Sequence record: MT833282.1 | DNA length: 64,000 nucleotides | Source of the DNA: Escherichia coli phage vB_EcoM_Shy | Strand: one strand, 5' to 3' | Part shown: piece by piece, positions 25,007-38,229 of the stretch | Layout of the letters: each line of letters opens with the position of its first letter | Numbering within the stretch: the first letter of the stretch is position 1 | The notes under the pieces: model-generated | Seen by the model: only the letters and a program-made list of their open reading frames with translations | Databases searched by the model: none | Told to the model about the DNA's origin: nothing | Program-made: the position numbers and the translations under genes

Positions 25007-25378
25007 ATGAAAAACAGAACAAACAAAGGCCAGTTTAAAAAAGGCCAGTCTGGAAACCCATCTGGAAGACCAAAAGGCTCTCGTAACAAAAGCTCACTTG
25101 TAAAAGCTCAACTGACCATTGATAATTCTGCTGAGTTTGCTGCAAAGTTGTTTGAAGCGATTGTTACAAGGGACGCTGCTAAGCTTGCAGAGTTCGGGTT
25201 AAACACAGATGACGTAACCATCAAGAGCATGATTGAGGTCGGTAAAACCATCTTTACTCACTCAGCAGGTGAGATGAAAGCACTTGCAGCAGACACTAAG
25301 AAGACTCCTGATAATGGTGGTCAGTCACAGACAGATAACAAACCAACGTTCTCTGCTGTAGCGACTCTCAAAAAATAA
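25007..25378 (+). CDS. hypothetical protein with N-terminal basic GQSGNPSGRPKG motif
   Basis: 123-aa ORF with AAGAGG SD; this motif is common in small phage proteins near packaging genes; function unknown. Confidence 0.5.
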   Translation: MKNRTNKGQFKKGQSGNPSGRPKGSRNKSSLVKAQLTIDNSAEFAAKLFEAIVTRDAAKLAEFGLNTDDVTIKSMIEVGKTIFTHSAGEMKALAADTKKTPDNGGQSQTDNKPTFSAVATLKK

Positions 25379-25459: not shown

Positions 25460-26875
25460 ATGAGCGAATTATTTAAACATGCGCACCTTCATGCAGGTCG
25501 AACTGAAAATGGTGCTGTAAACCATACTTCATCAATGTCTGCTTTGGTAGACTTCTACAAAGCCGCTGGCTCAAGCCGTAGCAATGTAGAAATCTTACCA
25601 GACCTGTTCTACAAAGCTTTGCGTGAGGATGTTGATGTTGCAGTTCGTATTTTACTGCATATGCGAGATGTACGAGAAGGTATGGGTGAGCGTAAAGCTT
25701 TCCGAACTGTTTTACTTCAAGCAATTGAAGATAAAGTTTTAGAACCTACACAGGTTCTTCGCATTATGGATAAGATTGCAGAACTCGGTCGTTTTGATGA
25801 CTTCAAAATCTTCGTAGGTACTCGTTTTGAGACAGATGCCTTCAAACATTTAGAAGCAGCATTACTAGACCCTGCAACAGCAGGTTTAGCGGCTAAGTGG
25901 TTACCACGAGTAAAACCACGCCACAAACAGTTTGTAAAACGTTTCTGTAAGTTTGCAAACTTAAGTGAGAAGGAGTATCGCACACTGTTATCTGCACTGT
26001 CTGATACGGTTGAGCAAAAAATCTCTGCTAATGAGTTTGGTAAGATTGACTACAGTAAGGTTCCTTCGCTAGCTGCTGCACGTTACCAAAAACTCTTTAA
26101 CCGTAAAGATGGGGAACGTTACAAAGCTTACATCGAGTCACTCTCAAAAGGTGAGGCTAAGATTAACGCTGGTGCTGTTTACCCATATGATGTGATTAAA
26201 TCTATCAAGTATGGTAATGCAGACGTTGCTAATGAGCAGTGGAAAGCACTACCAAACTGGATGGCAGAAGGTGAAAACATCTTGTGTATGACTGATGTTT
26301 CAAGTTCAATGTCTTGGGTGAATCTTGGTTCAATCACTGCCCTTGATATTGGTGTATCACTTGCCTTGTATGTAGCAGAACGTAATACTGGTTGCTTTAA
26401 AGATGAGTTAATGGTCTATTCAACAAGCCCTCATTTCATTGAACTGAGTGGTGATTTACGAAACCGTCATCGTCAGGTAATGCGTCATGTTGAATATGGT
26501 TCAACTAACTTACAAGCAGCTTTTGACCGTATTCTTGAGGTAGGCAAGAGAAACAACTTGACTCAGAAAGATATGCCAAGTAAGCTTATTATCTTCTCTG
26601 ATATGGAGTTTAATCAGGTTGATGGTGCAAATGGTCGTACAAACTTTGAAGCAATTCAGAGTAAGTACAAAAAAGCTGGATACGAAATGCCACAACTAGT
26701 ATTCTGGTACTTAGCAAACCGTAATGGTACTTGCGAAGTATCTGTTAAGGATAATGGTGTAGCAATGGTATCAGGGTTCTCTCCAGCCACTTTAAAAGCT
26801 CTGCTTGGTGGTGAGAAGTTTGACCCAATCAGCGTAATGCTCAAAGCAGTAATGATTGACCGTTACATCTGGTAA
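25460..26875 (+). CDS. vWA-domain protein, TROVE/Ro60-like
   Basis: 471-aa ORF; helical N-region then vWA domain with MIDAS-like DxSxS (ILCMTDVSSSM), GST, IIFSDMEF and C-terminal SGFSPATL, resembling my recollection of the Ro60 vWA region; sits immediately upstream of the tRNA array. Confidence 0.55.
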   Translation: MSELFKHAHLHAGRTENGAVNHTSSMSALVDFYKAAGSSRSNVEILPDLFYKALREDVDVAVRILLHMRDVREGMGERKAFRTVLLQAIEDKVLEPTQVLRIMDKIAELGRFDDFKIFVGTRFETDAFKHLEAALLDPATAGLAAKWLPRVKPRHKQFVKRFCKFANLSEKEYRTLLSALSDTVEQKISANEFGKIDYSKVPSLAAARYQKLFNRKDGERYKAYIESLSKGEAKINAGAVYPYDVIKSIKYGNADVANEQWKALPNWMAEGENILCMTDVSSSMSWVNLGSITALDIGVSLALYVAERNTGCFKDELMVYSTSPHFIELSGDLRNRHRQVMRHVEYGSTNLQAAFDRILEVGKRNNLTQKDMPSKLIIFSDMEFNQVDGANGRTNFEAIQSKYKKAGYEMPQLVFWYLANRNGTCEVSVKDNGVAMVSGFSPATLKALLGGEKFDPISVMLKAVMIDRYIW

Positions 26876-27040: not shown

Positions 27041-27117
27041 CTCTGTTTAGCTCAGCTTGGTAGAGCGTTCCGTTTGGGGCGGTAAGGTCGGAGGTTCAAG
27101 TCCTCCAACAGAGACCA
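27041..27117 (+). tRNA. tRNA-Pro (anticodon UGG)
   Basis: hand-folded cloverleaf: acceptor CTCTGTT/AACAGAG, D-arm GCTC..GAGC, anticodon loop TTTGGGG, T-arm GGAGG-TTCAAGT-CCTCC, CCA encoded. Confidence 0.7.
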
Positions 27118-27124
27118 AATTAAT

Positions 27125-27202
27125 GTTCCAGTAGACAAAATGGTAAAGTCACCACTCTTTCAAAGTGGATATTTGAGGGTTCAAATCCCTTCTGGAACGC
27201 CA
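27125..27202 (+). tRNA. tRNA-Glu (anticodon UUC)
   Basis: acceptor GTTCCAG/CTGGAAC, anticodon stem-loop CCACT-CTTTCAA-AGTGG, T-loop TTCAAAT. Confidence 0.7.
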
Positions 27203-27209
27203 GTTTTGA

Positions 27210-27282
27210 CAGAAGACCAATTACAGCAAGTTTAATCTTATTCATCTGACACGAAATCGGACAAAGAAGAGATTTGGTCTGG
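27210..27282 (+). ncRNA. structured spacer element A (CAGAAGACC...TwCAGCAA...GGTCTGG family)
   Basis: conserved 5' CAGAAGACCAATTACAGCAA and 3' TTGGTCTGG forming a 7-bp helix (AGACCAA/TTGGTCT); occupies the whole tRNA-Glu/tRNA-Met spacer. Confidence 0.45.
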
Positions 27283-27293
27283 TCATTAAGAAT

Positions 27294-27370
27294 TGCGGGT
27301 ATAGAGAAAGGGCGTCTCACATGTCTCATTAGCATGGTATCGGCAGGTTCGACTCCTGCACCCGCCTCCA
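27294..27370 (+). tRNA. tRNA-Met-like (anticodon CAU)
   Basis: anticodon stem-loop CATGT-CTCATTA-GCATG, T-arm GCAGG-TTCGACT-CCTGC, acceptor with mismatched first pair; Met versus Ile(CAU) not decidable by eye. Confidence 0.55.
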
Positions 27371-27376
27371 ATTTTG

Positions 27377-27436
27377 CAGAAGACCGTATTCAGCAACAAA
27401 CTACTTTTTGCGGATAAAAGAAAAAACACGGTCTGG
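27377..27436 (+). ncRNA. structured spacer element B (same family)
   Basis: CAGAAGACCGTATTCAGCAA ... ACGGTCTGG; helix AGACCGT/ACGGTCT shows compensatory changes relative to element A. Confidence 0.45.
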
Positions 27437-27447
27437 CAATGTATTAA

Positions 27448-27524
27448 GGTTAGGAAGCACATAAGGTATGTGCGGTCGCCTGTTAAGCGAATGGCACAGG
27501 GTTCGAATCCCTGACTAACCGCCA
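27448..27524 (+). tRNA. tRNA-Asn (anticodon GUU)
   Basis: D-arm GCAC..GTGC, anticodon loop CTGTTAA, T-arm CAGGG-TTCGAAT-CCCTG, CCA encoded. Confidence 0.7.
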
Positions 27525-27595
27525 AATTTAGGAGAGAAGCGATTGCTCACCGATTTGTAAGGTGCAAGTCCTTAGCCTGAATAGAATAATAAAAT

Positions 27596-27683
27596 GTGTC
27601 GTTATCCCGTAGATGGTAGCGGTGGGGACTGTAAATCCCTTGTCATTGAGACTCGGTAGGTTCGACTCCTACACGGCACACCA
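27596..27683 (+). tRNA. tRNA-Tyr (anticodon GUA), long variable arm
   Basis: acceptor GTGTCGT/ACGGCAC, anticodon loop CTGTAAA, 88 nt with extended variable arm, T-loop TTCGACT. Confidence 0.65.
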
Positions 27684-27689
27684 AATAAA

Positions 27690-27767
27690 GGTTATGTAGT
27701 TTAATCTGGTTAAAATACTCCCCTGTCACGGGAGATGATGAGGGTTCAAATCCCTTCGTAACCGCCA
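27690..27767 (+). tRNA. tRNA-Asp (anticodon GUC)
   Basis: acceptor GGTTATG/CGTAACC, anticodon stem-loop CTCCC-CTGTCAC-GGGAG, T-loop TTCAAAT. Confidence 0.7.
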
Positions 27768-27853
27768 AATTATAATAAGTATTTCAAAATGATGTTTGAG
27801 AGGGCTATTTAGCCCCTCCCTTAAAGAGTTCTTACGAGTATTCTTTAAAGGAG

Positions 27854-27926
27854 CAGAAGACCAAATTCAGCAAGAACGTATGAAATTTCAAGCCAATTTA
27901 ATTTTGAAAATTTAAACTTGGTCTGG
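27854..27926 (+). ncRNA. structured spacer element C (same family)
   Basis: CAGAAGACCAAATTCAGCAA ... CTTGGTCTGG, 7-bp helix AGACCAA/TTGGTCT. Confidence 0.45.
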
Positions 27927-27939
27927 CTCAACAAATTTA

Positions 27940-28071
27940 CAGAAGACCGTTTACAGCAAAACTTAAACAATCTATTTCTCCGGTAAAGAAAAGGCGAAGG
28001 TTCGATTCCTTCACTCGGCAGATGTCGAGTTGGTGTAATGGTAGCACTTAAGATGATAAACAATGGTCTGG
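27940..28071 (+). ncRNA. structured element D with circularly permuted tRNA-like domain (Y-RNA-like candidate)
   Basis: 5' CAGAAGACCGTTTACAGCAA and 3' CAATGGTCTGG helix enclose T-arm (GAAGG-TTCGATT-CCTTC, 27996-28012), closed acceptor-like hairpin (ACTCGGC-AGAT-GTCGAGT, 28013-28030) and D-arm (GTGT-AATGGTA-GCAC, 28033-28047); order is T-arm, acceptor, D-arm. Confidence 0.5.
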
Positions 28072-28072
28072 T

Positions 28073-28209
28073 AATTATCTTTGTAGATAAGTTATTAAGC
28101 TTCCCTGTGAGTATGCGACCACAAAGGTGAAAGGGTAGATTCTAGATTTAACCCGAAAAGACACATCGCTACAGACCTTAAGCAAGTCTGGGTAGCTTAT
28201 CTACAAAGA
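28073..28209 (+). ncRNA. long hairpin element E (18-bp perfect inverted repeat enclosing about 100 nt)
   Basis: ATTATCTTTGTAGATAAG (28073-28090) is the exact reverse complement of CTTATCTACAAAGATAAT (28192-28209); interior contains CAGACC..GTCTGG hairpin. Confidence 0.45.
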
Positions 28210-28218
28210 TAATTTAAT

Positions 28219-28294
28219 GGAAGTGTAGCAGAATGGTGATGCGGCAGACTTTTAATCTGACAGGCGATGGGTTCGAATCCCTCCACTTCTACCA
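28219..28294 (+). tRNA. tRNA-Lys (anticodon UUU)
   Basis: acceptor GGAAGTG/CACTTCT, anticodon loop CTTTTAA, T-loop TTCGAAT with weak T-stem; CCA encoded. Confidence 0.6.
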
Positions 28295-28298
28295 ATAT

Positions 28299-28375
28299 GG
28301 TTCAGTCGCAGATAAGGTAATGCAGGGGTTTCATAAGCCCTATGAATGTGGGTTCGATTCCCATCTGAACCTCCA
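28299..28375 (+). tRNA. tRNA with anticodon CAU (Met or Ile-lysidine type)
   Basis: acceptor GGTTCAG/CTGAACC, anticodon loop TTCATAA, T-arm GTGGG-TTCGATT-CCCAT. Confidence 0.6.
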
Positions 28376-28376
28376 A

Positions 28377-28452
28377 GCTGGTATAGTTAAGAAGGTTATA
28401 ACACTCCCCTGATAAGGGAATATCGGTGGTTCGATTCCACCTACCAGTACCA
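28377..28452 (+). tRNA. tRNA-Ile (anticodon GAU)
   Basis: anticodon loop CTGATAA, T-arm GGTGG-TTCGATT-CCACC, acceptor GCTGGTA/TACCAGT. Confidence 0.65.
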
Positions 28453-28476
28453 ATCTCAATAAAGTTGTTGACATTA

Positions 28477-28505
28477 AGATGTGACCACTTTATAGTAACT
28501 AAAAT
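28477..28505 (+). promoter_or_regulatory. sigma70-like promoter TTGACA-17-TATAGT inside the tRNA array
   Basis: consensus -35 and good -10; downstream 280 nt has no tRNA and no credible ORF. Confidence 0.5.
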
Positions 28506-28787
28506 ACTTCATAATATGTATAATTCAAACACCAATACATGAGCGTTAGACGTAACACAATGTGGGGAAATTTGTTGTACATATTCTGAATAGTTTTCGT
28601 TGCGTAGCGTCTATTTTGCAAATTTAAAATAAATGCAAACGACAATGTTTTCTGGCAGTAGCTTGATAGGCTAAACACCAGTGAGGTCTTCCAATCCCTC
28701 ATCAAAGAATTTGGCGTACTCGCCCACGGTATGATTAATAAGGTGGGCATCTTTAAGGGCTTTCTAAGAGAGCCTTTAAAGATTAAT

Positions 28788-28864
28788 GCACCCTTAGTTC
28801 AATTGGATAGAGCAACGGTCTTCTAAATCGTTAGTTACAGGTTCGAATCCTGTAGGGTGTGCCA
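28788..28864 (+). tRNA. tRNA-Arg (anticodon UCU)
   Basis: anticodon stem-loop ACGGT-CTTCTAA-ATCGT, T-arm ACAGG-TTCGAAT-CCTGT, acceptor GCACCCT/AGGGTGT. Confidence 0.65.
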
Positions 28865-29006
28865 AATAGTTAGCAGATTGCTTAGACGACCTTATCGGGT
28901 CTCCGTGTAAGGAGGTGGTCTGTATCTCATGTTTTCCAGAACATGTAAATAATCTGAGAAGGGGCTTTACAGTGTTGCGAAAATACGGTAAGCTTCGAAT
29001 TATAGT

Positions 29007-29089
29007 GTGGGACGATGTTAAGACTCTAAGGCATGAGCAACGGCCTCCAAAACCGTTTCAAAGGGGTTCAACTCCTCCGTCCCATGCCA
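29007..29089 (+). tRNA. atypical tRNA-like gene, possibly tRNA-Trp (anticodon CCA)
   Basis: acceptor GTGGGAC/GTCCCAT and T-arm AGGGG-TTCAACT-CCTCC fold well; anticodon loop CTCCAAA; D region is enlarged (83 nt total) so the call is tentative. Confidence 0.4.
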
Positions 29090-29102
29090 AAGTCTTATTA
29101 GG

Positions 29103-29190
29103 GGTAGGTAGCGGCTAATGGTAGCCAAACTGTCTTGAAAACAGTTGCCACTGTAGAGATACGGTGAGGGTTCGACTCCTTTACTTACCG
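29103..29190 (+). tRNA. tRNA-Ser (anticodon UGA), long variable arm
   Basis: anticodon stem-loop ACTGT-CTTGAAA-ACAGT, long variable arm, T-loop TTCGACT, acceptor GGTAGGT/ACTTACC. Confidence 0.65.
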
Positions 29191-29348
29191 CCTAATAAGA
29201 TTTTACACCGTCCATGCTTGCTCGCATTTTCGGTTTATCCCTCGTGTATTGTCGTACACACTGATAAAGCACCTAGTAGGTGTCACGGAGAAGAGATAAT
29301 ATCAAGCTCTCCAAAGGTTCTAGTCACCGGATTAAACAAGACTATGCA

Positions 29349-29370
29349 AAGACCTATTTAGGTCTTTTTA
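29349..29370 (+). terminator. rho-independent terminator-like hairpin within the tRNA array
   Basis: AAGACC-TATTTA-GGTCTT followed by TTTTT. Confidence 0.45.
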
Positions 29371-29448
29371 GAGGGCTTCTAAGGTTATTACAGCTTGTTG
29401 TGGAACCTTGTTGCTTAGGTTCTTAGAAGTTCTCTAAAAAGATTTAAT

Positions 29449-29526
29449 GGGAGATTGACGGTAATTGGTAAACCTACCATCCTTAGAAGTTGGTGTTTGA
29501 GGGTTCGAATCCCTTGTCTCCTACCA
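29449..29526 (+). tRNA. tRNA with Leu-type anticodon UAG, short variable arm (tentative Leu)
   Basis: acceptor GGGAGAT/GTCTCCT (two G-U pairs), anticodon loop CTTAGAA, T-arm GAGGG-TTCGAAT-CCCTT, A73, CCA encoded. Confidence 0.5.
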
Positions 29527-29533
29527 AATTAAT

Positions 29534-29609
29534 GCAGGTGTAGCAAAATGGTTATGCGGCTGACTCTTAATCAGTAAGACGATGGGTTCGAATCCCTCCA
29601 CCTGTACCA
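29534..29609 (+). tRNA. tRNA-Lys (anticodon CUU)
   Basis: paralogue of the 28219 tRNA; anticodon stem-loop CTGA-CTCTTAA-TCAG; same unusual T-stem. Confidence 0.6.
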
Positions 29610-29615
29610 AGCATT

Positions 29616-29692
29616 GGGGTCATAGTTTATATGGTTAAAATTCGAGTTTTGCAAACTTGGGAACTGAGTTCAATTCTCAGTGACTCCACCAA
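29616..29692 (+). tRNA. tRNA-Ala (anticodon UGC)
   Basis: acceptor GGGGTCA/TGACTCC with G3-U70, anticodon loop TTTGCAA, T-arm CTGAG-TTCAATT-CTCAG. Confidence 0.7.
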
Positions 29693-29698
29693 TTAGCG

Positions 29699-29773
29699 CA
29701 TCCATAGTTTAAACGGGAAAATTACAGTCTTCCAAACTGAGGTTGAGGGTTCGATTCCCTCTGGATGCTCCAA
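29699..29773 (+). tRNA. tRNA-Gly (anticodon UCC)
   Basis: acceptor GCATCCA/TGGATGC, anticodon loop CTTCCAA, T-arm GAGGG-TTCGATT-CCCTC. Confidence 0.7.
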
Positions 29774-29780
29774 ATTAATG

Positions 29781-29856
29781 CTCCTATCGTATAATTGGCT
29801 ATTACAGTTGCCTTGTAAGCAACTTATCAGGGTTCGAATCCTTGTGGGAGCACCAA
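29781..29856 (+). tRNA. tRNA-Thr (anticodon UGU)
   Basis: anticodon stem-loop GTTGC-CTTGTAA-GCAAC, T-loop TTCGAAT, acceptor GCTCCTA/TGGGAGC. Confidence 0.7.
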
Positions 29857-29951
29857 TTCAGAGGTCAAGTGAAAGACCGCTTTGAGTCAACTGAAGACCG
29901 TAACAAATTCCACGGAGTTGAGTTAGCGGCACAACTTCAGACCTCTTTCAT

Positions 29952-30026
29952 ACTCGCTTAGTTTATATGGTAAAACATCACCCTTACAAGATGAAGAAAA
30001 AGGTTCAAGTCCTTTAGTGAGTACCA
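29952..30026 (+). tRNA. tRNA-Val (anticodon UAC)
   Basis: anticodon loop CTTACAA, T-arm AAAGG-TTCAAGT-CCTTT, acceptor ACTCGCT/AGTGAGT. Confidence 0.6.
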
Positions 30027-30027
30027 T

Positions 30028-30105
30028 GTTCCAGTATCCCAATTGGCAGAGGATGCAAGCTCAAACCTTGTACTAGTGACGGTTCGAATCCGTCTTGGAA
30101 CACCA
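30028..30105 (+). tRNA. tRNA with Leu-type anticodon CAA, short variable arm (tentative Leu)
   Basis: acceptor GTTCCAG/TTGGAAC, anticodon stem-loop GCAAG-CTCAAAC-CTTGT, T-arm GACGG-TTCGAAT-CCGTC, A73. Confidence 0.5.
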
Positions 30106-30110
30106 ATTTT

Positions 30111-30186
30111 GCAGGATTAGTTCAAATGGATAGAGCAACAGTTTACGAAGCTGTTAATAGGGGTTCGAATCCCTTATCCTGCGCCA
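30111..30186 (+). tRNA. tRNA-Arg (anticodon ACG)
   Basis: acceptor GCAGGAT/ATCCTGC, anticodon stem-loop ACAGT-TTACGAA-GCTGT, T-loop TTCGAAT. Confidence 0.7.
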
Positions 30187-30205
30187 ATTTAAAGAGGCTA
30201 TTTAG

Positions 30206-30763
30206 ATGAGATATTTGAAGTATGCTTCATGGATTTTCTTAGCTTTGTTAGAGCCATTTGCAGCAATCTTAGCAGTTATCTTAGCACCTTTCGTAGTTCC
30301 ATTTTACAGTGAGAAGAAAGGACACTTACCTTTCGGATTTAGATGGATGGAGACATATGACAACCCTATTGATGGTGATGAAGGTCATATCGAACGATGG
30401 GCTAAGATTAGAAAGATTGGTAAGCTAGGTGTCTATATGCAGAGAGTCGGATGGCTCTGGAGAAACAAAGCTTATAACTTCTCCTACCATGTGTTAGGAA
30501 GAGATGTAAAAGATGTTACTAAGTGGAAAGGTAATATCAACGTAAGTTCTAACCCTAAAGATAATCAGACAGGTTATCTCCTAATGTGGAACAGTAATGC
30601 TTGGGGATTATTCGCTTTTATCCCATCAATTAAAGTCTTTGGTAAACAATTCTACTGGAGAATTTATGTTGGGTGGAAACTTAAAAGTGTTGTCCCAGAA
30701 GAAAGAGCATTCTCAAGGGAAAGAGTTATGTTGGCATTCTTTATTCATCCACTGAGAAAGTAA
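30206..30763 (+). CDS. membrane protein embedded in the tRNA array
   Basis: 185-aa ORF with AAAGAGG SD; N-terminal TM helix (WIFLALLEPFAAILAVILAPFVV), aromatic-rich. Confidence 0.5.
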   Translation: MRYLKYASWIFLALLEPFAAILAVILAPFVVPFYSEKKGHLPFGFRWMETYDNPIDGDEGHIERWAKIRKIGKLGVYMQRVGWLWRNKAYNFSYHVLGRDVKDVTKWKGNINVSSNPKDNQTGYLLMWNSNAWGLFAFIPSIKVFGKQFYWRIYVGWKLKSVVPEERAFSRERVMLAFFIHPLRK

Positions 30764-30771
30764 AGATTTAA

Positions 30772-30847
30772 AGGGGATTAGTTTACAAGGTTAAAACCTC
30801 GGTCTTTGAAATCGAAGAAGTTGGTTCAATTCCAACATCCCCCGCCA
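30772..30847 (+). tRNA. tRNA-Gln (anticodon UUG)
   Basis: anticodon stem-loop TCGGT-CTTTGAA-ATCGA, T-arm GTTGG-TTCAATT-CCAAC. Confidence 0.6.
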
Positions 30848-30849
30848 AT

Positions 30850-30926
30850 GCTCCATTACTCCAATTGGCAGAGGCCAGACTTAAAATCTGTGTTATGTAT
30901 CGGTTCGAATCCGATATGGAGTACCA
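30850..30926 (+). tRNA. tRNA with Leu-type anticodon UAA, short variable arm (tentative Leu)
   Basis: anticodon loop CTTAAAA, T-arm ATCGG-TTCGAAT-CCGAT, acceptor GCTCCAT/ATGGAGT, A73. Confidence 0.5.
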
Positions 30927-30931
30927 AATTT

Positions 30932-31007
30932 AGCGGTATAGCATAACTGGCAATGCAGCAGTCTCTGAAGCTGTCTTATTAAGGTTCAAATCCTTATGCC
31001 GCTGCCA
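30932..31007 (+). tRNA. tRNA-Gln (anticodon CUG)
   Basis: anticodon stem-loop GCAGT-CTCTGAA-GCTGT, T-loop TTCAAAT, acceptor AGCGGTA/TGCCGCT. Confidence 0.55.
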
Positions 31008-31038
31008 CTTCTAAGGATTCTTACGAGAGTCCTTAAAT

Positions 31039-31114
31039 GTGGCCTTATCATAAACGGTAATGACCCATGCTGTGAACATGGTCTATACGGGTTCAAATCC
31101 CGTAGGTCACCCCA
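31039..31114 (+). tRNA. tRNA-His (anticodon GUG)
   Basis: anticodon stem-loop CCATG-CTGTGAA-CATGG, T-arm ACGGG-TTCAAAT-CCCGT, acceptor GTGGCCT/AGGTCAC. Confidence 0.7.
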
Positions 31115-31119
31115 ATTTA

Positions 31120-31194
31120 TAGTCCAAGTAGCTTATATGGTTAAAGCGCGTGTCTGAAAAACATGAGAAGAGGGTTCAAATCCCACTGGACTAC
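31120..31194 (+). tRNA. tRNA-Phe (anticodon GAA)
   Basis: acceptor TAGTCCA/TGGACTA, anticodon loop CTGAAAA, T-loop TTCAAAT. Confidence 0.6.
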
Positions 31195-31212
31195 CAATTT
31201 CAAAGGTGCTTA

Positions 31213-31947
31213 ATGAAAGAGATGACAGAACAAGGTAAGGAGATTTTTAGTCTCTTAAAAACCGGTAGAGGGTTTTCTAATCCCCTTATTACTGGTGCAG
31301 CAGTTCTCGGTGGAACCGTAGCTGCCTCTACATCACTTGTAAGCTCTATTAGCTCTGTAACAGACCCTACAATAAAGGATAAACTTGTTGCTGCTGGACT
31401 TACAACAGTTCTGCTTAACAGCTTTACAACGAGTCTGACAAGCACTACATCGACTACTAAAACGCTGACAGATTATGGTCAAAAGTCTATTGATGAGTTT
31501 TCATCACGTATGCAGGTAGCAAAAGGATATTCCAATGTTATGGGTGCAGCAGGAGAACAAGTCGGTTGTACGCCATTTAGTGGTATTATGGGCGTTGCTA
31601 CAGAGTATGGTCAAAAAGCTATTGATACGATTAACAGTGCATTAGACGGTGTTAATGATGTATTAAGTGACTTACAAGACGCTATTGACAAAGGTCTTGA
31701 TACTATTTCTGATTTAGCTAACCAAGCTGTTAGTAAGATTAATGAAGGTATCTCGAAGATTACAGCTTATGCAGATGAAGTTGTGCAGATGATTGAAGAA
31801 GAAGCTGCCCTTATTGCAGAGTACCTTAAAACGAATATCAATGGGTTCTTAGCAGGTATCTTACCAGACTGGTTTGATGATGCTTGTAAAACTGGTGTAA
31901 TTGATACTATTGCAACACCAGAAATGAAGAACGCATTACAGAAATAA
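31213..31947 (+). CDS. hypothetical Ser/Thr-rich protein
   Basis: start re-assigned to ATG 31213 (the track start at 31150 lies inside tRNA-Phe); low-complexity S/T-rich centre; stop 1 nt before tRNA-Ser. Confidence 0.5.
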   Translation: MKEMTEQGKEIFSLLKTGRGFSNPLITGAAVLGGTVAASTSLVSSISSVTDPTIKDKLVAAGLTTVLLNSFTTSLTSTTSTTKTLTDYGQKSIDEFSSRMQVAKGYSNVMGAAGEQVGCTPFSGIMGVATEYGQKAIDTINSALDGVNDVLSDLQDAIDKGLDTISDLANQAVSKINEGISKITAYADEVVQMIEEEAALIAEYLKTNINGFLAGILPDWFDDACKTGVIDTIATPEMKNALQK

Positions 31948-31948
31948 T

Positions 31949-32041
31949 GGAAGATTAACCCTAAAAGGTAAGGGAGCAGTTTGCTAAACTGCCAGTAGCT
32001 GAGAAATCGGTGTACCAGTTCAAGTCTGGTATCTTCCTCCA
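31949..32041 (+). tRNA. tRNA-Ser (anticodon GCU), long variable arm
   Basis: acceptor GGAAGAT/ATCTTCC, anticodon stem-loop GCAGT-TTGCTAA-ACTGC, long variable arm, T-arm ACCAG-TTCAAGT-CTGGT. Confidence 0.75.
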
Positions 32042-32045
32042 ATTT

Positions 32046-32121
32046 GAATCCGTGACAGAAATGGCTATGTACCTGTCTGCAAAACAGGTTTATAAGGGTT
32101 CGAGTCCCTTCGGATTCTCCA
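32046..32121 (+). tRNA. tRNA-Cys (anticodon GCA)
   Basis: acceptor GAATCCG/CGGATTC, anticodon stem-loop CCTGT-CTGCAAA-ACAGG, T-arm AAGGG-TTCGAGT-CCCTT. Confidence 0.75.
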
Positions 32122-36493: not shown

Positions 36494-37840
36494 ATGAGTT
36501 CGAATATCTTCAGACTTGCTGATAGATTATTCAACCAACCTTTACTAGCCACTGAATCATTAGCTCACTCAGCAGCAACTTATGTGAATAACAGATTGCT
36601 GGGTGATGTCCAAGCAGCAGTAAACTTTGATAACCCAAAAGGTGATGCAAGAAGTCTTTTAAAAGTAAAAGATGACATTGCTATTATCCCTATTATGGGT
36701 GGTTTAACTCATCGTATGACATTCATTGATGCAATGTGTACAGGTGGTCTAAGCTCTTATGAAGGTTTACGTAGAGGCTTTGACGAAGCTTTAGCAGATG
36801 AGTCAATCAAGACTATTGTTCTGCATATTGATTCTGGTGGTGGTGAAGCTTCAGGTTGCTTTGAATTAGCACGTCACATTATGGCTTCAAGAGGCCAAAA
36901 GAAAATTATTGCTTATGTAGATGAGTTCGCTTGTTCCGCTGCATATGCCCTTGCATCTTCTGCTGAAGAAATTATTGCATCACCAGATGCAGATGTTGGT
37001 TCTATTGGTGTAATCATGGTTCATCAGGAATTAACTAAGGCATTTGAAAAGAATGGCGTAACAATTAACGTCATCAAAGCTGGTGAGTTTAAAGGTATGG
37101 GTTCGCCATTCCAAGCACTTTCAGAAGAAAGCAAAGAAAGACTTCAAAAGAGAATTAATGATACCTACGCAACCTTTACAGGTTTTGTAGCTGAATCTCG
37201 TAATCTCTCTGAAGAAGCTGTAAAGAATACTGAGGCGAATGTTTATTCTGCTCAGGAAGCTCTTGAACTTGGTTTAATTAATTCAATCATGTCTCAAGAT
37301 GATTTCTTAAATTACTTACAAGGTTCTGAAGAGGCTCCTGTAAGTTTAAACGTTAACAATTCAGGTGAAGAAATGACTGAACAAGAAAAGCAAGAACTAG
37401 AAGCTTTGCGTCTTCAGGTTGCTCAAATGAAAGCTAAAGAACAGGAAGCTGCTTTGTCAGATTTGACTAATAAGATTTCTGCTTCTGCTGAAGCTTTTGG
37501 ATTTGATGCAAAAGAAGCTGCAACGACTATTTTAGGTGCTGGTCTTGATAACCCTCTGAGCGTTCTGTTTATGAATGCTATGGAAGGTGCTAACCAGAAA
37601 CTTAATGAAACTATCGCGTCCCATGCTTCTGCAATGGAAGAAAAAGAATCAGAAATTACCAAGCTGAAAGAAACTGCTGGTGCTGTTCTTGAACATTCCA
37701 ACGCTATGGAAGAAGTGGGTAATGACGGCGAAGCTGATTTAGTTGAAGAAGAAAAAGAACCAGCTAAGAATGCTTCCGAAGACACCGCTGAACAACGCAA
37801 ACTGGCTCTCCAGAATGCTCTAAAATCTCTTATCAAATAA
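36494..37840 (+). CDS. prohead protease (S49/ClpP-like) with C-terminal coiled-coil scaffold-like domain
   Basis: S49 peptidase-like core (IVLHIDSGGGEASG, FACSAAYALASSAEEI, GSIGVIM) followed by about 170 aa of E/K/A-rich helical sequence. Confidence 0.8.
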   Translation: MSSNIFRLADRLFNQPLLATESLAHSAATYVNNRLLGDVQAAVNFDNPKGDARSLLKVKDDIAIIPIMGGLTHRMTFIDAMCTGGLSSYEGLRRGFDEALADESIKTIVLHIDSGGGEASGCFELARHIMASRGQKKIIAYVDEFACSAAYALASSAEEIIASPDADVGSIGVIMVHQELTKAFEKNGVTINVIKAGEFKGMGSPFQALSEESKERLQKRINDTYATFTGFVAESRNLSEEAVKNTEANVYSAQEALELGLINSIMSQDDFLNYLQGSEEAPVSLNVNNSGEEMTEQEKQELEALRLQVAQMKAKEQEAALSDLTNKISASAEAFGFDAKEAATTILGAGLDNPLSVLFMNAMEGANQKLNETIASHASAMEEKESEITKLKETAGAVLEHSNAMEEVGNDGEADLVEEEKEPAKNASEDTAEQRKLALQNALKSLIK

Positions 37841-37851
37841 GGAACACAATA

Positions 37852-38229
37852 ATGGCATATCAAGGTTTTACTAAGTTAGGTAAAAGAGAACCTCTGAATG
37901 ATATCATTCTTTGGGAACAGGTTACCCCAACAGGCCACTCTCGTAAAGAGTACACCCCACAGGCATCTACAGAATATCGTGTAGGTGATGTTCTGAAGGC
38001 AGACGGTACTAAAGTTACAGCAGGGCAAGAAGCTCAGGCTGATTCGGTATGTATCGTTAACTTCTATGCAGACCTGCAACTGTCTTACCACGGTCAGTTG
38101 AAAGTTGTTGGTATTTACCGCGACGCAGAACTAAAAGACCTGCTTACTCTTGAGTCAGGTGTTGATGCTGCCGCAGTCAAGACAGCTCTGGCTGCTAAAG
38201 GTATCGATTTCGTACCAACTGGCCTGTAA
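37852..38229 (+). CDS. head decoration-like protein (lambda gpD position)
   Basis: 125-aa ORF between protease and major capsid gene; assignment by position and size. Confidence 0.4.
   Translation: MAYQGFTKLGKREPLNDIILWEQVTPTGHSRKEYTPQASTEYRVGDVLKADGTKVTAGQEAQADSVCIVNFYADLQLSYHGQLKVVGIYRDAELKDLLTLESGVDAAAVKTALAAKGIDFVPTGL

What the first reader, a model, noticed from the sequence alone, without database searches (positions are those of the whole stretch)
27985..28050. Circularly permuted tRNA-like domain (T-arm, closed acceptor hairpin, D-arm)
Sequence 27996-28012 is a canonical T-arm (GAAGG-TTCGATT-CCTTC), immediately followed by ACTCGGC-AGAT-GTCGAGT (a 7-bp acceptor-like stem closed by a tetraloop) and then a D-arm-like GTGT-AATGGTA-GCAC. 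This is the order expected if the anticodon stem of a tRNA were replaced by the enclosing long helix, as described for bacterial YrlA-type Y RNAs. It cannot be a conventional tRNA because there is no free 5' or 3' acceptor end.
Basis: partly seen in the sequence, partly recalled or inferred. Interest (0 to 1): 0.8.

Follow-up and report, generated by a model that had tools for sequence, protein, structure and literature searches.

The report
Phage Y-like RNA with tRNA-like core
A Felix O1-type phage hides, inside its tRNA gene cluster, a small RNA shaped like a rearranged tRNA that is very probably the partner of a Ro60-like RNA-binding protein encoded 1 kb upstream; that protein is 97% identical to one already shown, in a relative, to block a bacterial anti-phage defence.

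Summary
At 27996-28047 a canonical T-arm is followed directly by a closed 7-bp acceptor-like hairpin and then a D-arm. ARAGORN calls no tRNA there, and only 1 of 25 T-arm-like motifs in the window has this arrangement.

The full unit is 27937-28077: a closing helix with an AGA/G internal loop, an unpaired UACAGCAA motif, a 4-bp anticodon-stem equivalent, a long V arm, then the T, acceptor and D arms. The acceptor hairpin covaries across three Ounavirinae genera.

The window is a Felixounavirus. The ORF at 25460-26875 (Pfam DUF2828+DUF7788) has a Ro60 fold and is 97% identical to Bas63 gp130, a reported counter of the Ppl defence.

The same helix-plus-motif RNA, usually with the tRNA-like core, flanks distant homologs of this protein on the gene's strand in many phages. 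In mycobacteriophage Whirlwind it is also recognised weakly by Rfam YrlA. Three further helix-only copies lie between tRNAs in the window.

Rfam YrlA does not score the window element, and the YrlA GNCGAA motif is absent.

Verdict: a YrlA-type Y RNA in architecture and context, belonging to a divergent, undescribed sub-family. RNA expression, protein binding and function are untested.

The parts
25460..26875 (+). Gene for a 471-aa Ro60-fold protein (DUF2828 helical domain + DUF7788 vWA-like domain with the DxSxS motif TDVSSSMS); ortholog of Bas63 gp130
   Evidence: ORF. Pfam DUF2828+DUF7788, not TROVE. PHROG 850 'RNA-binding protein'. AlphaFold2 model pLDDT 85.6, pTM 0.86. Top 12 Foldseek PDB hits are all full-length Ro60/TROVE structures, E 1.6e-8 to 3e-6, TM up to 0.66. 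97% identical to Bas63 gp130.
27937..28077 (+). Complete Y-like RNA unit: closing helix + tRNA-like core (the finding, extended)
   Evidence: MFE and centroid folds. Model R1 164.6 bits. Conserved in Felixounavirus, Mooglevirus and Suspvirus.
27937..27951 (+). 5' strand of the closing helix: UUAC (pairs with 28071-28074), AGA internal loop (27941-27943, opposite G28070), AGACCGUU (pairs with 28062-28069)
   Evidence: Invariant in Ounavirinae apart from one G-C/G-U change. Covaries across the wider family and between the four paralogous copies in the window.
27952..27959 (+). Unpaired UACAGCAA motif: candidate protein-recognition element
   Evidence: Four exact copies of AGACC-N3-T-N-CAGCAA in the window against 0.38 expected. 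CAGCA is nearly invariant in 30 family members. The motif is enriched 5-fold on the gene strand within 600 nt of the homologous gene in 65 distant loci.
27962..27965 (+). CUUA, 3'-side strand of the anticodon-stem equivalent; pairs with UAAG 28049-28052
   Evidence: By analogy with L026, where an intact 5-bp ACUGA/UCAGU stem with a 5-nt variable loop occupies this place.
27966..27995 (+). V arm: hairpin UUUCU-CCGGUAA-AGAAA (27975-27991) that resembles an anticodon arm
   Evidence: Aligned as an anticodon arm by the Rfam tRNA model, but the loop sequence varies (CCGGUAA, CUGGUAA, CUUAUAA, CUAUAAA) and so does its length (CGGUAA in close relatives), so it is not a decoding loop.
27996..28012 (+). 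T-arm GAAGG-UUCGAUU-CCUUC
   Evidence: Invariant in Ounavirinae. The stem covaries across the family.
28013..28030 (+). Closed acceptor-like hairpin ACUCGGC-AGAU-GUCGAGU
   Evidence: 100% paired, with 3 of 7 pairs changed on both sides, in an unfitted MAFFT alignment of 11 Ounavirinae variants. Loop length is 2-8 nt within Ounavirinae and longer elsewhere.
28033..28047 (+). D-arm GUGU-AAUGGUA-GCAC
   Evidence: Invariant stem in Ounavirinae. G18G19 conserved in most family members.
28049..28074 (+). 3' strand: UAAG (anticodon-stem equivalent), internal loop AUGAUAAAC, AAUGGUCU, G, GUAA
27207..27288 (+). Helix-only module 1 (same closing helix and ACAGCAA motif, no tRNA-like core); fills the tRNA-Glu/tRNA-Met spacer
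   Evidence: R1 35.7 bits, E 3.7e-7; fold; motif.
27374..27442 (+). Helix-only module 2; fills the tRNA-Met/tRNA-Asn spacer
   Evidence: R1 36.9 bits, E 1.8e-7; fold; motif.
27851..27929 (+). Helix-only module 3, directly upstream of the main unit
   Evidence: Direct repeat D6 and inverted repeat I8; fold; motif. Not reported separately by cmsearch.
28073..28216 (+). Downstream structured element (24-bp helix enclosing about 100 nt) with a mini-hairpin CAGAC-CUUAAGCAA-GUCUG at about 28173-28191; membership in the system is uncertain
   Evidence: z-score -5.29. 24-bp helix 97% paired with 4 compensatory pairs; mini-hairpin 100% paired. No Rfam match.

Best explanation
The segment is the tRNA-like module of a phage non-coding RNA built like a bacterial YrlA-type Y RNA. 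The RNA (27937-28077) is transcribed with the tRNA array. Its two ends form a helix with an AGA/G internal loop and an adjacent unpaired UACAGCAA motif. The inner part folds into a tRNA elbow (T-arm, D-arm, closed acceptor stem, V arm). The helix-plus-motif module is the probable docking site for the phage's own Ro60-like ring protein, encoded 1.06 kb upstream (ortholog of Bas63 gp130). Three further helix-only copies in the inter-tRNA spacers would be additional ligands. The tRNA-like module would then act as the effector end, presenting a tRNA shape to a host factor such as PNPase or a tRNA-processing or tRNA-modifying enzyme, as in Ro60-Y RNA-PNPase complexes. What is shown here: the sequence anatomy, conservation and covariation of the RNA, the Ro60 fold of the neighbouring protein, and the co-occurrence of RNA and gene across distant phages. 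What is inferred: that the RNA is made, that the protein binds it, which partner the tRNA-like end engages, and whether RNase P opens the acceptor hairpin.
For: Anatomy and folds. Conservation across three Ounavirinae genera, with compensatory changes in the acceptor hairpin, in an alignment not fitted to any structure. Family-wide covariation: 91% of cells paired against 38-48% when partners are slid, and 31 of 34 pairs changed on both sides. The neighbouring ORF has a Ro60 fold: the top 12 PDB hits are all Ro60/TROVE. Model R2 finds 53 matches at E<=0.1 in 65 loci carrying distant homologs (about 40-47% identity); all are on the gene's strand and many abut the gene. The CAGCA motif occurs 101 times on the gene strand and 19 on the opposite strand within 600 nt of the gene, and is present in 52 of 65 loci. 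Bridge to canonical YrlA: the RNA next to mycobacteriophage Whirlwind's homolog matches R2 full-length (63.9 bits) and its core matches Rfam YrlA (38.3 bits); R2 also hits the Bxz1 YrlA core. The YrlA architecture and the RNase P/CCA precedent are from PMC4201824. The authors who studied Bas63 gp130 independently suspected Y RNAs among the neighbouring tRNA genes.
Against: There is no expression, binding or modification data for this RNA. Rfam YrlA does not score it at E<=10. The GNCGAAN0-1G/CGAA motif used to recognise Ro60-binding sites is absent from the helix; the only CGAA lies in the T-stem and varies in relatives. The protein is not Pfam TROVE, and sequence profiles reach canonical Ro60 only at the MIDAS motif. 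gp130 alone rescues T7 on the Ppl strain, so its one known phenotype does not need these RNAs in cis. Phage SP116 has lost the acceptor hairpin, D-arm and 3' strand by deletion, so the intact RNA is dispensable for viability. The family-wide alignment was fitted to the model, which inflates the pairing counts. Only 19 of the 65 distant loci have a hit at E<0.01.
Confidence: 0.75

Rival explanations
1. It is a structured RNA of the tRNA operon that works independently of the Ro60-like protein. Examples would be a processing or punctuation element recognised by RNase P, RNase E or RNase Z that shapes maturation of the polycistronic tRNA precursor, or a tRNA decoy that soaks up host tRNA-targeting defence nucleases.
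For: It lies inside a 26-tRNA array on the same strand. The helix-only modules fill the inter-tRNA spacers to within 3-5 nt. The acceptor hairpin has good RNase P determinants when read from the sequence: a 7-bp stem, G+1:C72, U-1, A73. Several relatives encode N-CCA at the start of the hairpin loop. gp130 works without the RNAs in T7.
Against: It does not explain why the same helix and ACAGCAA motif follow the DUF2828 gene on its strand in phages where the RNA abuts the gene. It also does not explain why L026, which has no tRNA genes in 13 kb, carries four copies directly upstream of the gene.
Confidence: 0.15
2. It is a relic of two tandem tRNA genes (the 3' half of one and the 5' half of the next, a 'dimeric tRNA' false positive) with no function of its own.
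For: Chen et al. warn that dimeric tRNAs mimic YrlA in searches. The upstream half scores as a tRNA 3' half. N-CCA plus a short spacer in some hairpin loops looks like a tRNA-tRNA junction. A tRNA finder in intron mode produced a 131-nt 'tRNA-Thr' here in one record.
Against: ARAGORN finds no tRNA on either side. The acceptor hairpin keeps 100% pairing through compensatory changes, while the T and D arms are invariant across three genera. The closing helix and motif are conserved and repeated. The arrangement recurs next to distant homologs of the gene. An origin from tandem tRNAs is plausible, but decay is not.
Confidence: 0.05
3. It is a functional circularly permuted or split tRNA gene. The transcript would be cut in the acceptor loop and used, as a two-piece molecule held together by the closing helix, as a decoding tRNA-Thr(GGU).
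For: All cloverleaf parts are present in permuted order, with the hairpin 27975-27991 reading as an anticodon arm with GGU. The array has no tRNA-Thr(GGU). The M. smegmatis YrlA is cleaved by RNase P and receives CCA.
Against: The putative anticodon loop has C at position 33. It changes to UAU/AUA-type sequences and even to a 6-nt loop in close relatives. In distant members this hairpin is absent or is a short V region, and the closing helix itself occupies the anticodon-stem position. A long helix inserted at 26/27 is not compatible with a standard L-shape.
Confidence: 0.04

Closest known systems
YrlA-type bacterial/phage Y RNA (Rfam RF02553; Chen et al. 2014, PMC4201824)
   Same: The module order is the same: terminal helix, V region, T-arm, closed acceptor-like stem-loop, D-arm. 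tRNA tertiary nucleotides are retained. It is encoded near, and on the strand of, a Ro60-fold protein gene, and it is accompanied by smaller tRNA-less sibling RNAs (compare YrlB). The model built here cross-hits the YrlA cores of Bxz1 and Whirlwind.
   Different: It is not scored by RF02553 at E<=10. It lacks GNCGAAN0-1G and instead carries an AGA/G internal loop plus an unpaired ACAGCAA. The partner protein belongs to Pfam DUF2828/DUF7788 rather than TROVE/vWA_Ro60. It has a long hairpin V arm, and it is embedded in a 26-tRNA array with three extra helix-only copies.
Thermus phage phiLo Ro60 with Yrl1/Yrl2 (PMC12135203)
   Same: A phage-encoded Ro60-fold protein with two or more small RNAs encoded next to it. 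The phiLo protein is among the best structural matches (9kop, 9l5y). A counter-defence role has been proposed for it.
   Different: The phiLo Yrls were identified by a CGAA bulge and are not described as tRNA-like. Here there is no CGAA motif, and one RNA has a complete tRNA-like core.
Bas63 gp130, Ro60-like counter of the Ppl defence (bioRxiv 10.1101/2024.10.10.617714)
   Same: It is the same protein (97% identity) in the same genomic position. Those authors guessed that Y RNAs might hide among the neighbouring tRNA genes.
   Different: They named no RNA. The candidates found here are not annotated tRNAs: they lie in unannotated spacers and under two antisense 'hypothetical' CDSs, bas63_0137 and bas63_0138.
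Circularly permuted tRNA genes of the red alga Cyanidioschyzon merolae, and permuted two-piece tmRNA genes (from my own knowledge; not checked with these tools)
   Same: At the gene level, the 3' part (T-arm and 3' acceptor strand) precedes the 5' part (5' acceptor strand and D-arm), joined by a short linker.
   Different: Those genes yield a functional tRNA or tmRNA after processing. Here there is no conserved anticodon loop, no tag reading frame (ARAGORN finds no tmRNA), and no sign of a circularisation pathway.

Membership tests
YrlA-type Y RNA | tRNA-like module in the order V region, T-arm, closed acceptor-like stem-loop, D-arm, enclosed by a helix formed by the RNA's 5' and 3' parts | tested here: met
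   Sequence; folds; covariation; definition from PMC4201824.
YrlA-type Y RNA | Retention of tRNA tertiary-interaction nucleotides (U8, A14, G18G19, T-loop UUCRA, pyrimidine 48) | tested here: met
   Read from the sequence at 27995-28043. The T-loop and the GG of the D-loop are conserved in the family alignment. Position 15 is A opposite C48, so the Levitt pair is non-standard.
YrlA-type Y RNA | Encoded adjacent to a Ro60 ortholog | tested here: met
   A Ro60-fold ORF ends 1.06 kb upstream on the same strand. The association holds in distant phages. The protein is Ro60-like by fold only, not by Pfam TROVE.
YrlA-type Y RNA | GNCGAAN0-1G (CGAA) motif in the 5' strand of the Ro60-binding helix | tested here: not met
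   The 5' strand reads UUACAGAAGACCGUUUACAGCAAAA. The only CGAA is in GGCGAAGG, which forms the T-stem and changes to GGUGAAGG, GGAGAAGG or GAGAGAAGG in relatives.
YrlA-type Y RNA | Match to the curated covariance model RF02553 | tested here: not met
   No hit at E<=10 on 601-nt and 156-nt scans. Positive controls: Bxz1 32.5 bits and Whirlwind 38.3 bits, both below the gathering score of 69.
YrlA-type Y RNA | Bound by Ro60 in vivo; carries tRNA modifications (pseudouridine 55, dihydrouridine) | not testable with these tools
   Needs immunoprecipitation/EMSA and modification mapping.
Ro60 / TROVE protein (for the neighbouring ORF) | HEAT-repeat ring followed by a vWA domain with a MIDAS motif | tested here: met
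   AF2 model pLDDT 85.6. Full-length Foldseek matches to 2i91, 1yvp, 2nvo, 9kop and 9l5y. DxSxS motif at residues 279-283, invariant in 29 homologs.
Ro60 / TROVE protein (for the neighbouring ORF) | Sequence-level membership (Pfam TROVE PF05731 / vWA_Ro60 PF25045) | tested here: not met
   Pfam gives DUF2828+DUF7788 only. The profile search against PDB sequences finds no Ro60. hhalign against Bxz1 gp220 aligns 40 columns at the MIDAS motif, probability 49%.
Functional circularly permuted tRNA gene | A conserved 7-nt anticodon loop with a fixed anticodon | tested here: not met
   The loop varies in sequence and in length among close relatives.
Tandem (dimeric) tRNA genes | Two complete tRNA genes flanking the junction | tested here: not met
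   ARAGORN and Rfam call no tRNA covering 27768-28218. There is no 5' half upstream and no 3' half downstream.
Permuted two-piece tmRNA | tRNA-like domain plus a tag-peptide reading frame | tested here: not met
   ARAGORN, whose output covers tmRNA genes, finds none. Rfam tmRNA gives nothing at this locus.

The most novel reading that the evidence does not exclude
The DUF2828/DUF7788 proteins found in at least 709 sequenced phages form a large, unrecognised branch of Ro60 with its own RNA code (AGA/G loop plus ACAGCAA). Their partner RNAs are tRNA mimics cut out of tRNA operons by the tRNA-processing machinery. In members with a 7-bp acceptor stem, such as this one, RNase P would open the hairpin to give a two-piece, CCA-ending tRNA mimic that serves as the effector or decoy in counter-defence.
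Probability: 0.2. Interest if true: 0.8.

Novelty: new variant of a known kind. Interest (0 to 1): 0.62.

Why it matters
Ro60-Y RNA particles are a conserved but poorly understood RNA-surveillance system. Their phage versions have only just begun to be studied, and one (Bas63 gp130) has a measurable anti-defence phenotype in E. coli. Pinpointing the likely RNA partners in a tractable coliphage, with a distinct recognition motif and several natural variants (helix-only copies, copies lacking the acceptor stem, a natural deletion), makes the RNA side of that system directly testable. It also suggests that the widespread 'DUF2828' phage proteins are Ro60-type RNPs linked to tRNA clusters. Finally, it flags misannotations: antisense 'hypothetical proteins' and a 131-nt 'tRNA-Thr' drawn over this RNA in public records.

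Tried and rejected
1. Rfam at gathering threshold and at E<=10: no YrlA, Y RNA, tmRNA or other family at the element.
2. Single-sequence and profile searches of the protein against PDB sequences: no Ro60. hhalign against a canonical phage Ro60 aligned only the MIDAS motif. The fold search was needed.
3. The REP6 annotation of a 131-nt tRNA-Thr(GGT): rejected, because its proposed 5' acceptor strand (GCCAATT, by my own mapping) pairs poorly, whereas the true complement lies downstream.
4. Reading the hairpin 27975-27991 as an anticodon arm of a permuted tRNA-Thr: rejected because of loop variability and the architecture of distant members.
5. The GNCGAA motif: the apparent match GGCGAAGG is the T-stem and is not conserved.
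6. Protein-coding alternatives in the gap: only short TTG/GTG ORFs, which indels in relatives would frameshift.
7. My strict pattern scanner also flagged tandem tRNAs (L066), which were discarded using ARAGORN.
8. Promoter and terminator scans were no better than chance.
9. The supplements of Chen 2014 and of PhageMaP held nothing usable, and the Annual Review on bacterial Ro60 was not available.
10. N-CCA enrichment at the start of the hairpin loop is suggestive only: 2 of 8 strict cases, p about 0.006, plus looser cases seen by eye.

Full report
**1. Observation**

- T-arm GAAGG-TTCGATT-CCTTC at 27996-28012.
- Closed 7-bp hairpin ACTCGGC-AGAT-GTCGAGT at 28013-28030.
- T8 G9 at 28031-28032.
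- D-arm GTGT-AATGGTA-GCAC at 28033-28047.

The nucleotides that build a tRNA elbow are present: U8, A14, G18G19, A21 and the T-loop UUCGA. ARAGORN finds 26 tRNA genes at 27041-32121, all on the + strand, but none in the 450-nt gap 27768-28218 that holds the finding. Rfam at gathering thresholds reports only the tRNAs. Of 25 T-arm-like motifs on the + strand of the window, only this one is followed directly by a perfect closed 7-bp hairpin, even though the array has many head-to-tail tRNA junctions.

**2. Full extent of the element**

The Rfam tRNA model gives a sub-threshold match (22-23 bits) that aligns a hairpin UUUCU-CCGGUAA-AGAAA (27975-27991) plus AGGC as an anticodon arm and variable loop in front of the T-arm. 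Folding 27930-28080 alone gives a five-way junction with these parts:
- an outer helix, 27937-27940 with 28071-28074;
- an AGA/G internal loop;
- a helix AGACCGUU/AAUGGUCU, 27944-27951 with 28062-28069;
- an internal loop whose 5' side reads UACAGCAAAA;
- a 4-bp stem CUUA/UAAG, 27962-65 with 28049-52, that starts one nucleotide after the D-stem;
- the four hairpins.

In a distant homolog (L026) the position of CUUA/UAAG is taken by a clean 5-bp stem with a canonical 5-nt variable loop, and there is no extra hairpin. I therefore read CUUA/UAAG as the anticodon-stem equivalent and the 27975-27991 hairpin as a long V arm. That matches the YrlA layout of Chen et al. (PMC4201824).

**3. Identity of the genome and conservation**

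The window is a Felix O1-type phage. It is 96-98% identical to Escherichia phages JH2 and CL1 and to Salmonella phages. The whole 450-nt gap is conserved in Felixounavirus, Mooglevirus and Suspvirus.

In a MAFFT alignment of 11 distinct variants, not fitted to any structure, the acceptor-like hairpin is 100% paired and 3 of its 7 pairs are changed on both sides: ACUCGGC/GUCGAGU, ACACGU/GCGUGU and ACCCUUC/GAAGGGU. Its loop is 2, 4 or 8 nt. The T-arm, D-arm and closing helix are essentially invariant.

The V-hairpin loop varies in sequence and even in length (CCGGUAA or CGGUAA in close relatives), so it is not a decoding anticodon loop. Only short TTG/GTG ORFs overlap the gap, and the indels seen in relatives would frameshift them. 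These results exclude an assembly artefact, a decaying pseudogene and a coding region.

**4. The neighbouring protein**

The ORF at 25460-26875 (471 aa, + strand) ends 166 nt before the first tRNA and 1.06 kb before the element.
- Pfam assigns DUF2828 + DUF7788, not TROVE.
- PHROGs calls it 'RNA-binding protein'.
- Sequence searches against the PDB, alone or as a 29-sequence profile, find no Ro60.
- hhalign against the canonical Ro60 of mycobacteriophage Bxz1 (Pfam TROVE + vWA_Ro60) aligns only the MIDAS region.
- An AlphaFold2 model is confident (pLDDT 85.6, pTM 0.86). Its 12 best Foldseek matches in the PDB are all full-length Ro60/TROVE structures: Xenopus and human Ro60, D. radiodurans Rsr, and Thermus phage phiLo Ro60 (E 1.6e-8 to 3e-6, TM up to 0.66). 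Isolated vWA domains follow.
- The protein is 97% identical to Bas63 gp130.

A 2024 preprint reports that gp130 is structurally similar to Ro60, lies directly upstream of the tRNA genes, and counters the Ppl defence system. [quoted passage not shown] In mycobacteriophages, homologs of this same family are annotated 'Ro-like RNA binding protein'. The Ro60-like nature of the protein is therefore not new. The RNA is.

**5. Association of the RNA with the gene across phages**

I fetched 80 viral loci encoding relatives of the protein and built a covariance model from the Ounavirinae alignment (R1).
- R1 finds significant matches next to homologs that are only about 40-46% identical: L058, L080, L026 (four tandem copies), L060, L040, L054, L030, L062/63 and L027.
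- ARAGORN calls no tRNA at the pattern-scan candidates it was run on (L026, L030, L054, L058, L075). L026 has no tRNA at all in 13 kb.
- An iterated model (R2) gives 53 matches at E<=0.1 in the 65 non-Ounavirinae loci. All are on the gene's strand, and many lie within about 150 nt of the gene's start or stop. Nineteen loci have a match at E<0.01.
- In an alignment of 30 members, 91% of cells are paired against 38-48% when the partner columns are slid. Thirty-one of 34 pairs show changes on both sides. This alignment was fitted to the model, which favours the structure.
- The unpaired CAGCA of the UACAGCAA motif and the AGA/UCUG end of the helix are nearly invariant.
- A simple count is independent of the model. 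[ACT]CAGCA[AG] occurs 101 times on the gene strand and 19 times on the other strand within 600 nt of the gene (1.32 against 0.25 per kb; 0.36-0.52 per kb farther away). It is present in 52 of 65 loci.

**6. Relation to canonical YrlA**

Rfam contains YrlA (RF02553). It detects the T/acceptor/D core beside the canonical Ro60 gene of Bxz1 (32.5 bits, E 1.9e-4) and beside the DUF2828-type gene of mycobacteriophage Whirlwind (38.3 bits). It gives nothing for the window element at E<=10, even on a 156-nt scan.

My model R2 matches the Whirlwind RNA over its full length, including ACAGCAA (63.9 bits, E 2e-13). It matches the Bxz1 YrlA only over the tRNA-like core (model positions 26-106).

The YrlA helix motif GNCGAAN0-1G is absent. 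The only CGAA lies in the T-stem and is not conserved.

So the tRNA-like module is shared with YrlA, while the presumed protein-binding module is different. This fits the divergent protein.

**7. More copies in the window**

AGACC-N3-T-N-CAGCAA occurs four times, all on the + strand inside the tRNA array (27214, 27381, 27858, 27944), against 0.38 expected.
- R1 detects helix-only units at 27207-27288 and 27374-27442.
- A third lies at 27851-27929.
- All share an outer 4-bp helix that covaries between copies (UGAC/GUCA, UUGC/GCAA, GAGC/GCUC, UUAC/GUAA), the AGA/G loop and the AGACC/GGUCU helix.
- Two of them fill inter-tRNA spacers to within 3-5 nt of the flanking tRNAs.

This suggests, as an inference, that ordinary tRNA 5' and 3' processing releases them. 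It parallels YrlA/YrlB and phiLo Yrl1/Yrl2.

**8. Mechanism**

Most likely (about 0.75), the RNA is a Y-like partner of the phage Ro60-like protein. The helix with the AGA/G loop and ACAGCAA would be the docking site. The tRNA-like end would be the effector module that recruits a host factor.

By analogy with the Ro60-Y RNA-PNPase complexes of D. radiodurans, Salmonella and phage phiLo, PNPase is the first candidate. tRNA enzymes (RNase P, TruB, the CCA-adding enzyme) are alternatives.

The hairpin has good RNase P determinants: a 7-bp stem, G+1:C72, U-1 and A73. The only YrlA with a 7-bp stem (M. smegmatis) is cleaved by RNase P and receives CCA in vivo. Several relatives encode N-CCA at the start of the hairpin loop (Michonne, L026, L080, L054). 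Cleavage into a two-piece tRNA mimic is therefore possible, but untested.

Points against a simple obligatory RNP:
- gp130 alone rescues T7 on the Ppl strain.
- Phage SP116 carries a natural deletion, caused by recombination between the element's T-loop and that of tRNA-Lys. It removes the acceptor hairpin, the D-arm and the 3' strand.

**9. Rivals**

- An operon-processing element or decoy that is independent of the protein: 0.15.
- A functionless tandem-tRNA relic: 0.05.
- A decoding permuted tRNA-Thr: 0.04.

The reasons are given in the rival entries.

**10. Novelty**

- Known: the YrlA class; Y RNAs in some phages (mycobacteriophages, CcrColossus, Bacillus phage G, phiLo); the Ro60-like fold of gp130.
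- Not found in the searchable literature: any identification of these RNAs in Felix O1-type phages, the ACAGCAA/AGA-loop module, or the link between DUF2828 proteins and this RNA.

I rate it a new variant of a known kind, with interest 0.62.

Noticed in passing
window 27207-27288, 27374-27442, 27851-27929: Three helix-only paralogs of the element's closing helix (CAGAAGACC...YCAGCAA...GGUCUGG) lie in the tRNA array. Two fill inter-tRNA spacers almost exactly. They are likely sibling Y-like RNAs without a tRNA-like core.
   Followed up: yes
window 28073-28216: A 144-nt element directly downstream folds far better than shuffles (z -5.29). Its 24-bp closing helix is conserved and covaries. It contains a mini-hairpin CAGAC-CUUAAGCAA-GUCUG (AAACC-CUUUAGCAA-GGUUU in relatives) that echoes the AGCAA motif. 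No Rfam match. Some relatives lack or replace it.
   Followed up: partly
window 27796-27853: Two overlapping, nearly invariant hairpins (GAGAGGGCUAUUUAGCCCCUC and CUCCCUUAAAGAGUUCU-UACG-AGUAUUCUUUAAAGGAG) lie just after tRNA-Asp. They are conserved across three genera and their role is unknown.
   Followed up: no
L012 (Salmonella phage SP116) 8446-8640, equivalent to window 28005-28275: A natural deletion joins the element's T-loop to the T-loop of tRNA-Lys(UUU). It removes the acceptor hairpin, the D-arm, the 3' helix strand, the downstream element and most of tRNA-Lys. It shows that T-loop-to-T-loop recombination occurs and that the intact RNA is dispensable.
   Followed up: partly
L094 (Bas63, MZ501086) 37748-38022; L002 (REP6) 399-529: Public annotations cover the RNA with two antisense 'hypothetical protein' CDSs (bas63_0137, bas63_0138) and, in REP6, with a 131-nt 'tRNA-Thr GGT'. 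Both are probably misannotations.
   Followed up: partly
L091 (Listeria phage LP-083-2) 1429-1980 and 5815-7026: A ROOL RNA match (RF03087, 87.4 bits, E 1.3e-16, just under the gathering score) lies about 1 kb upstream of the DUF2828 Ro60-like gene, among tRNAs. An RtcB-like RNA ligase lies 1.3 kb downstream, which is reminiscent of bacterial rsr-yrlA-rtcB operons.
   Followed up: no
L026 4310-5888: Four tandem copies of the RNA lie directly upstream of the Ro60-like gene in a contig region with no tRNA genes. Two have 7-bp acceptor hairpins whose loops begin with N-CCA. The other two lack the acceptor hairpin, so the T-arm is joined almost directly to the D-arm.
   Followed up: partly
window 25007-25378: A small ORF (123 aa, Pfam DUF5681) lies immediately upstream of the Ro60-like gene on the same strand. 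It is conserved at the same position in HMD-P10 and Bas63. Function unknown.
   Followed up: no
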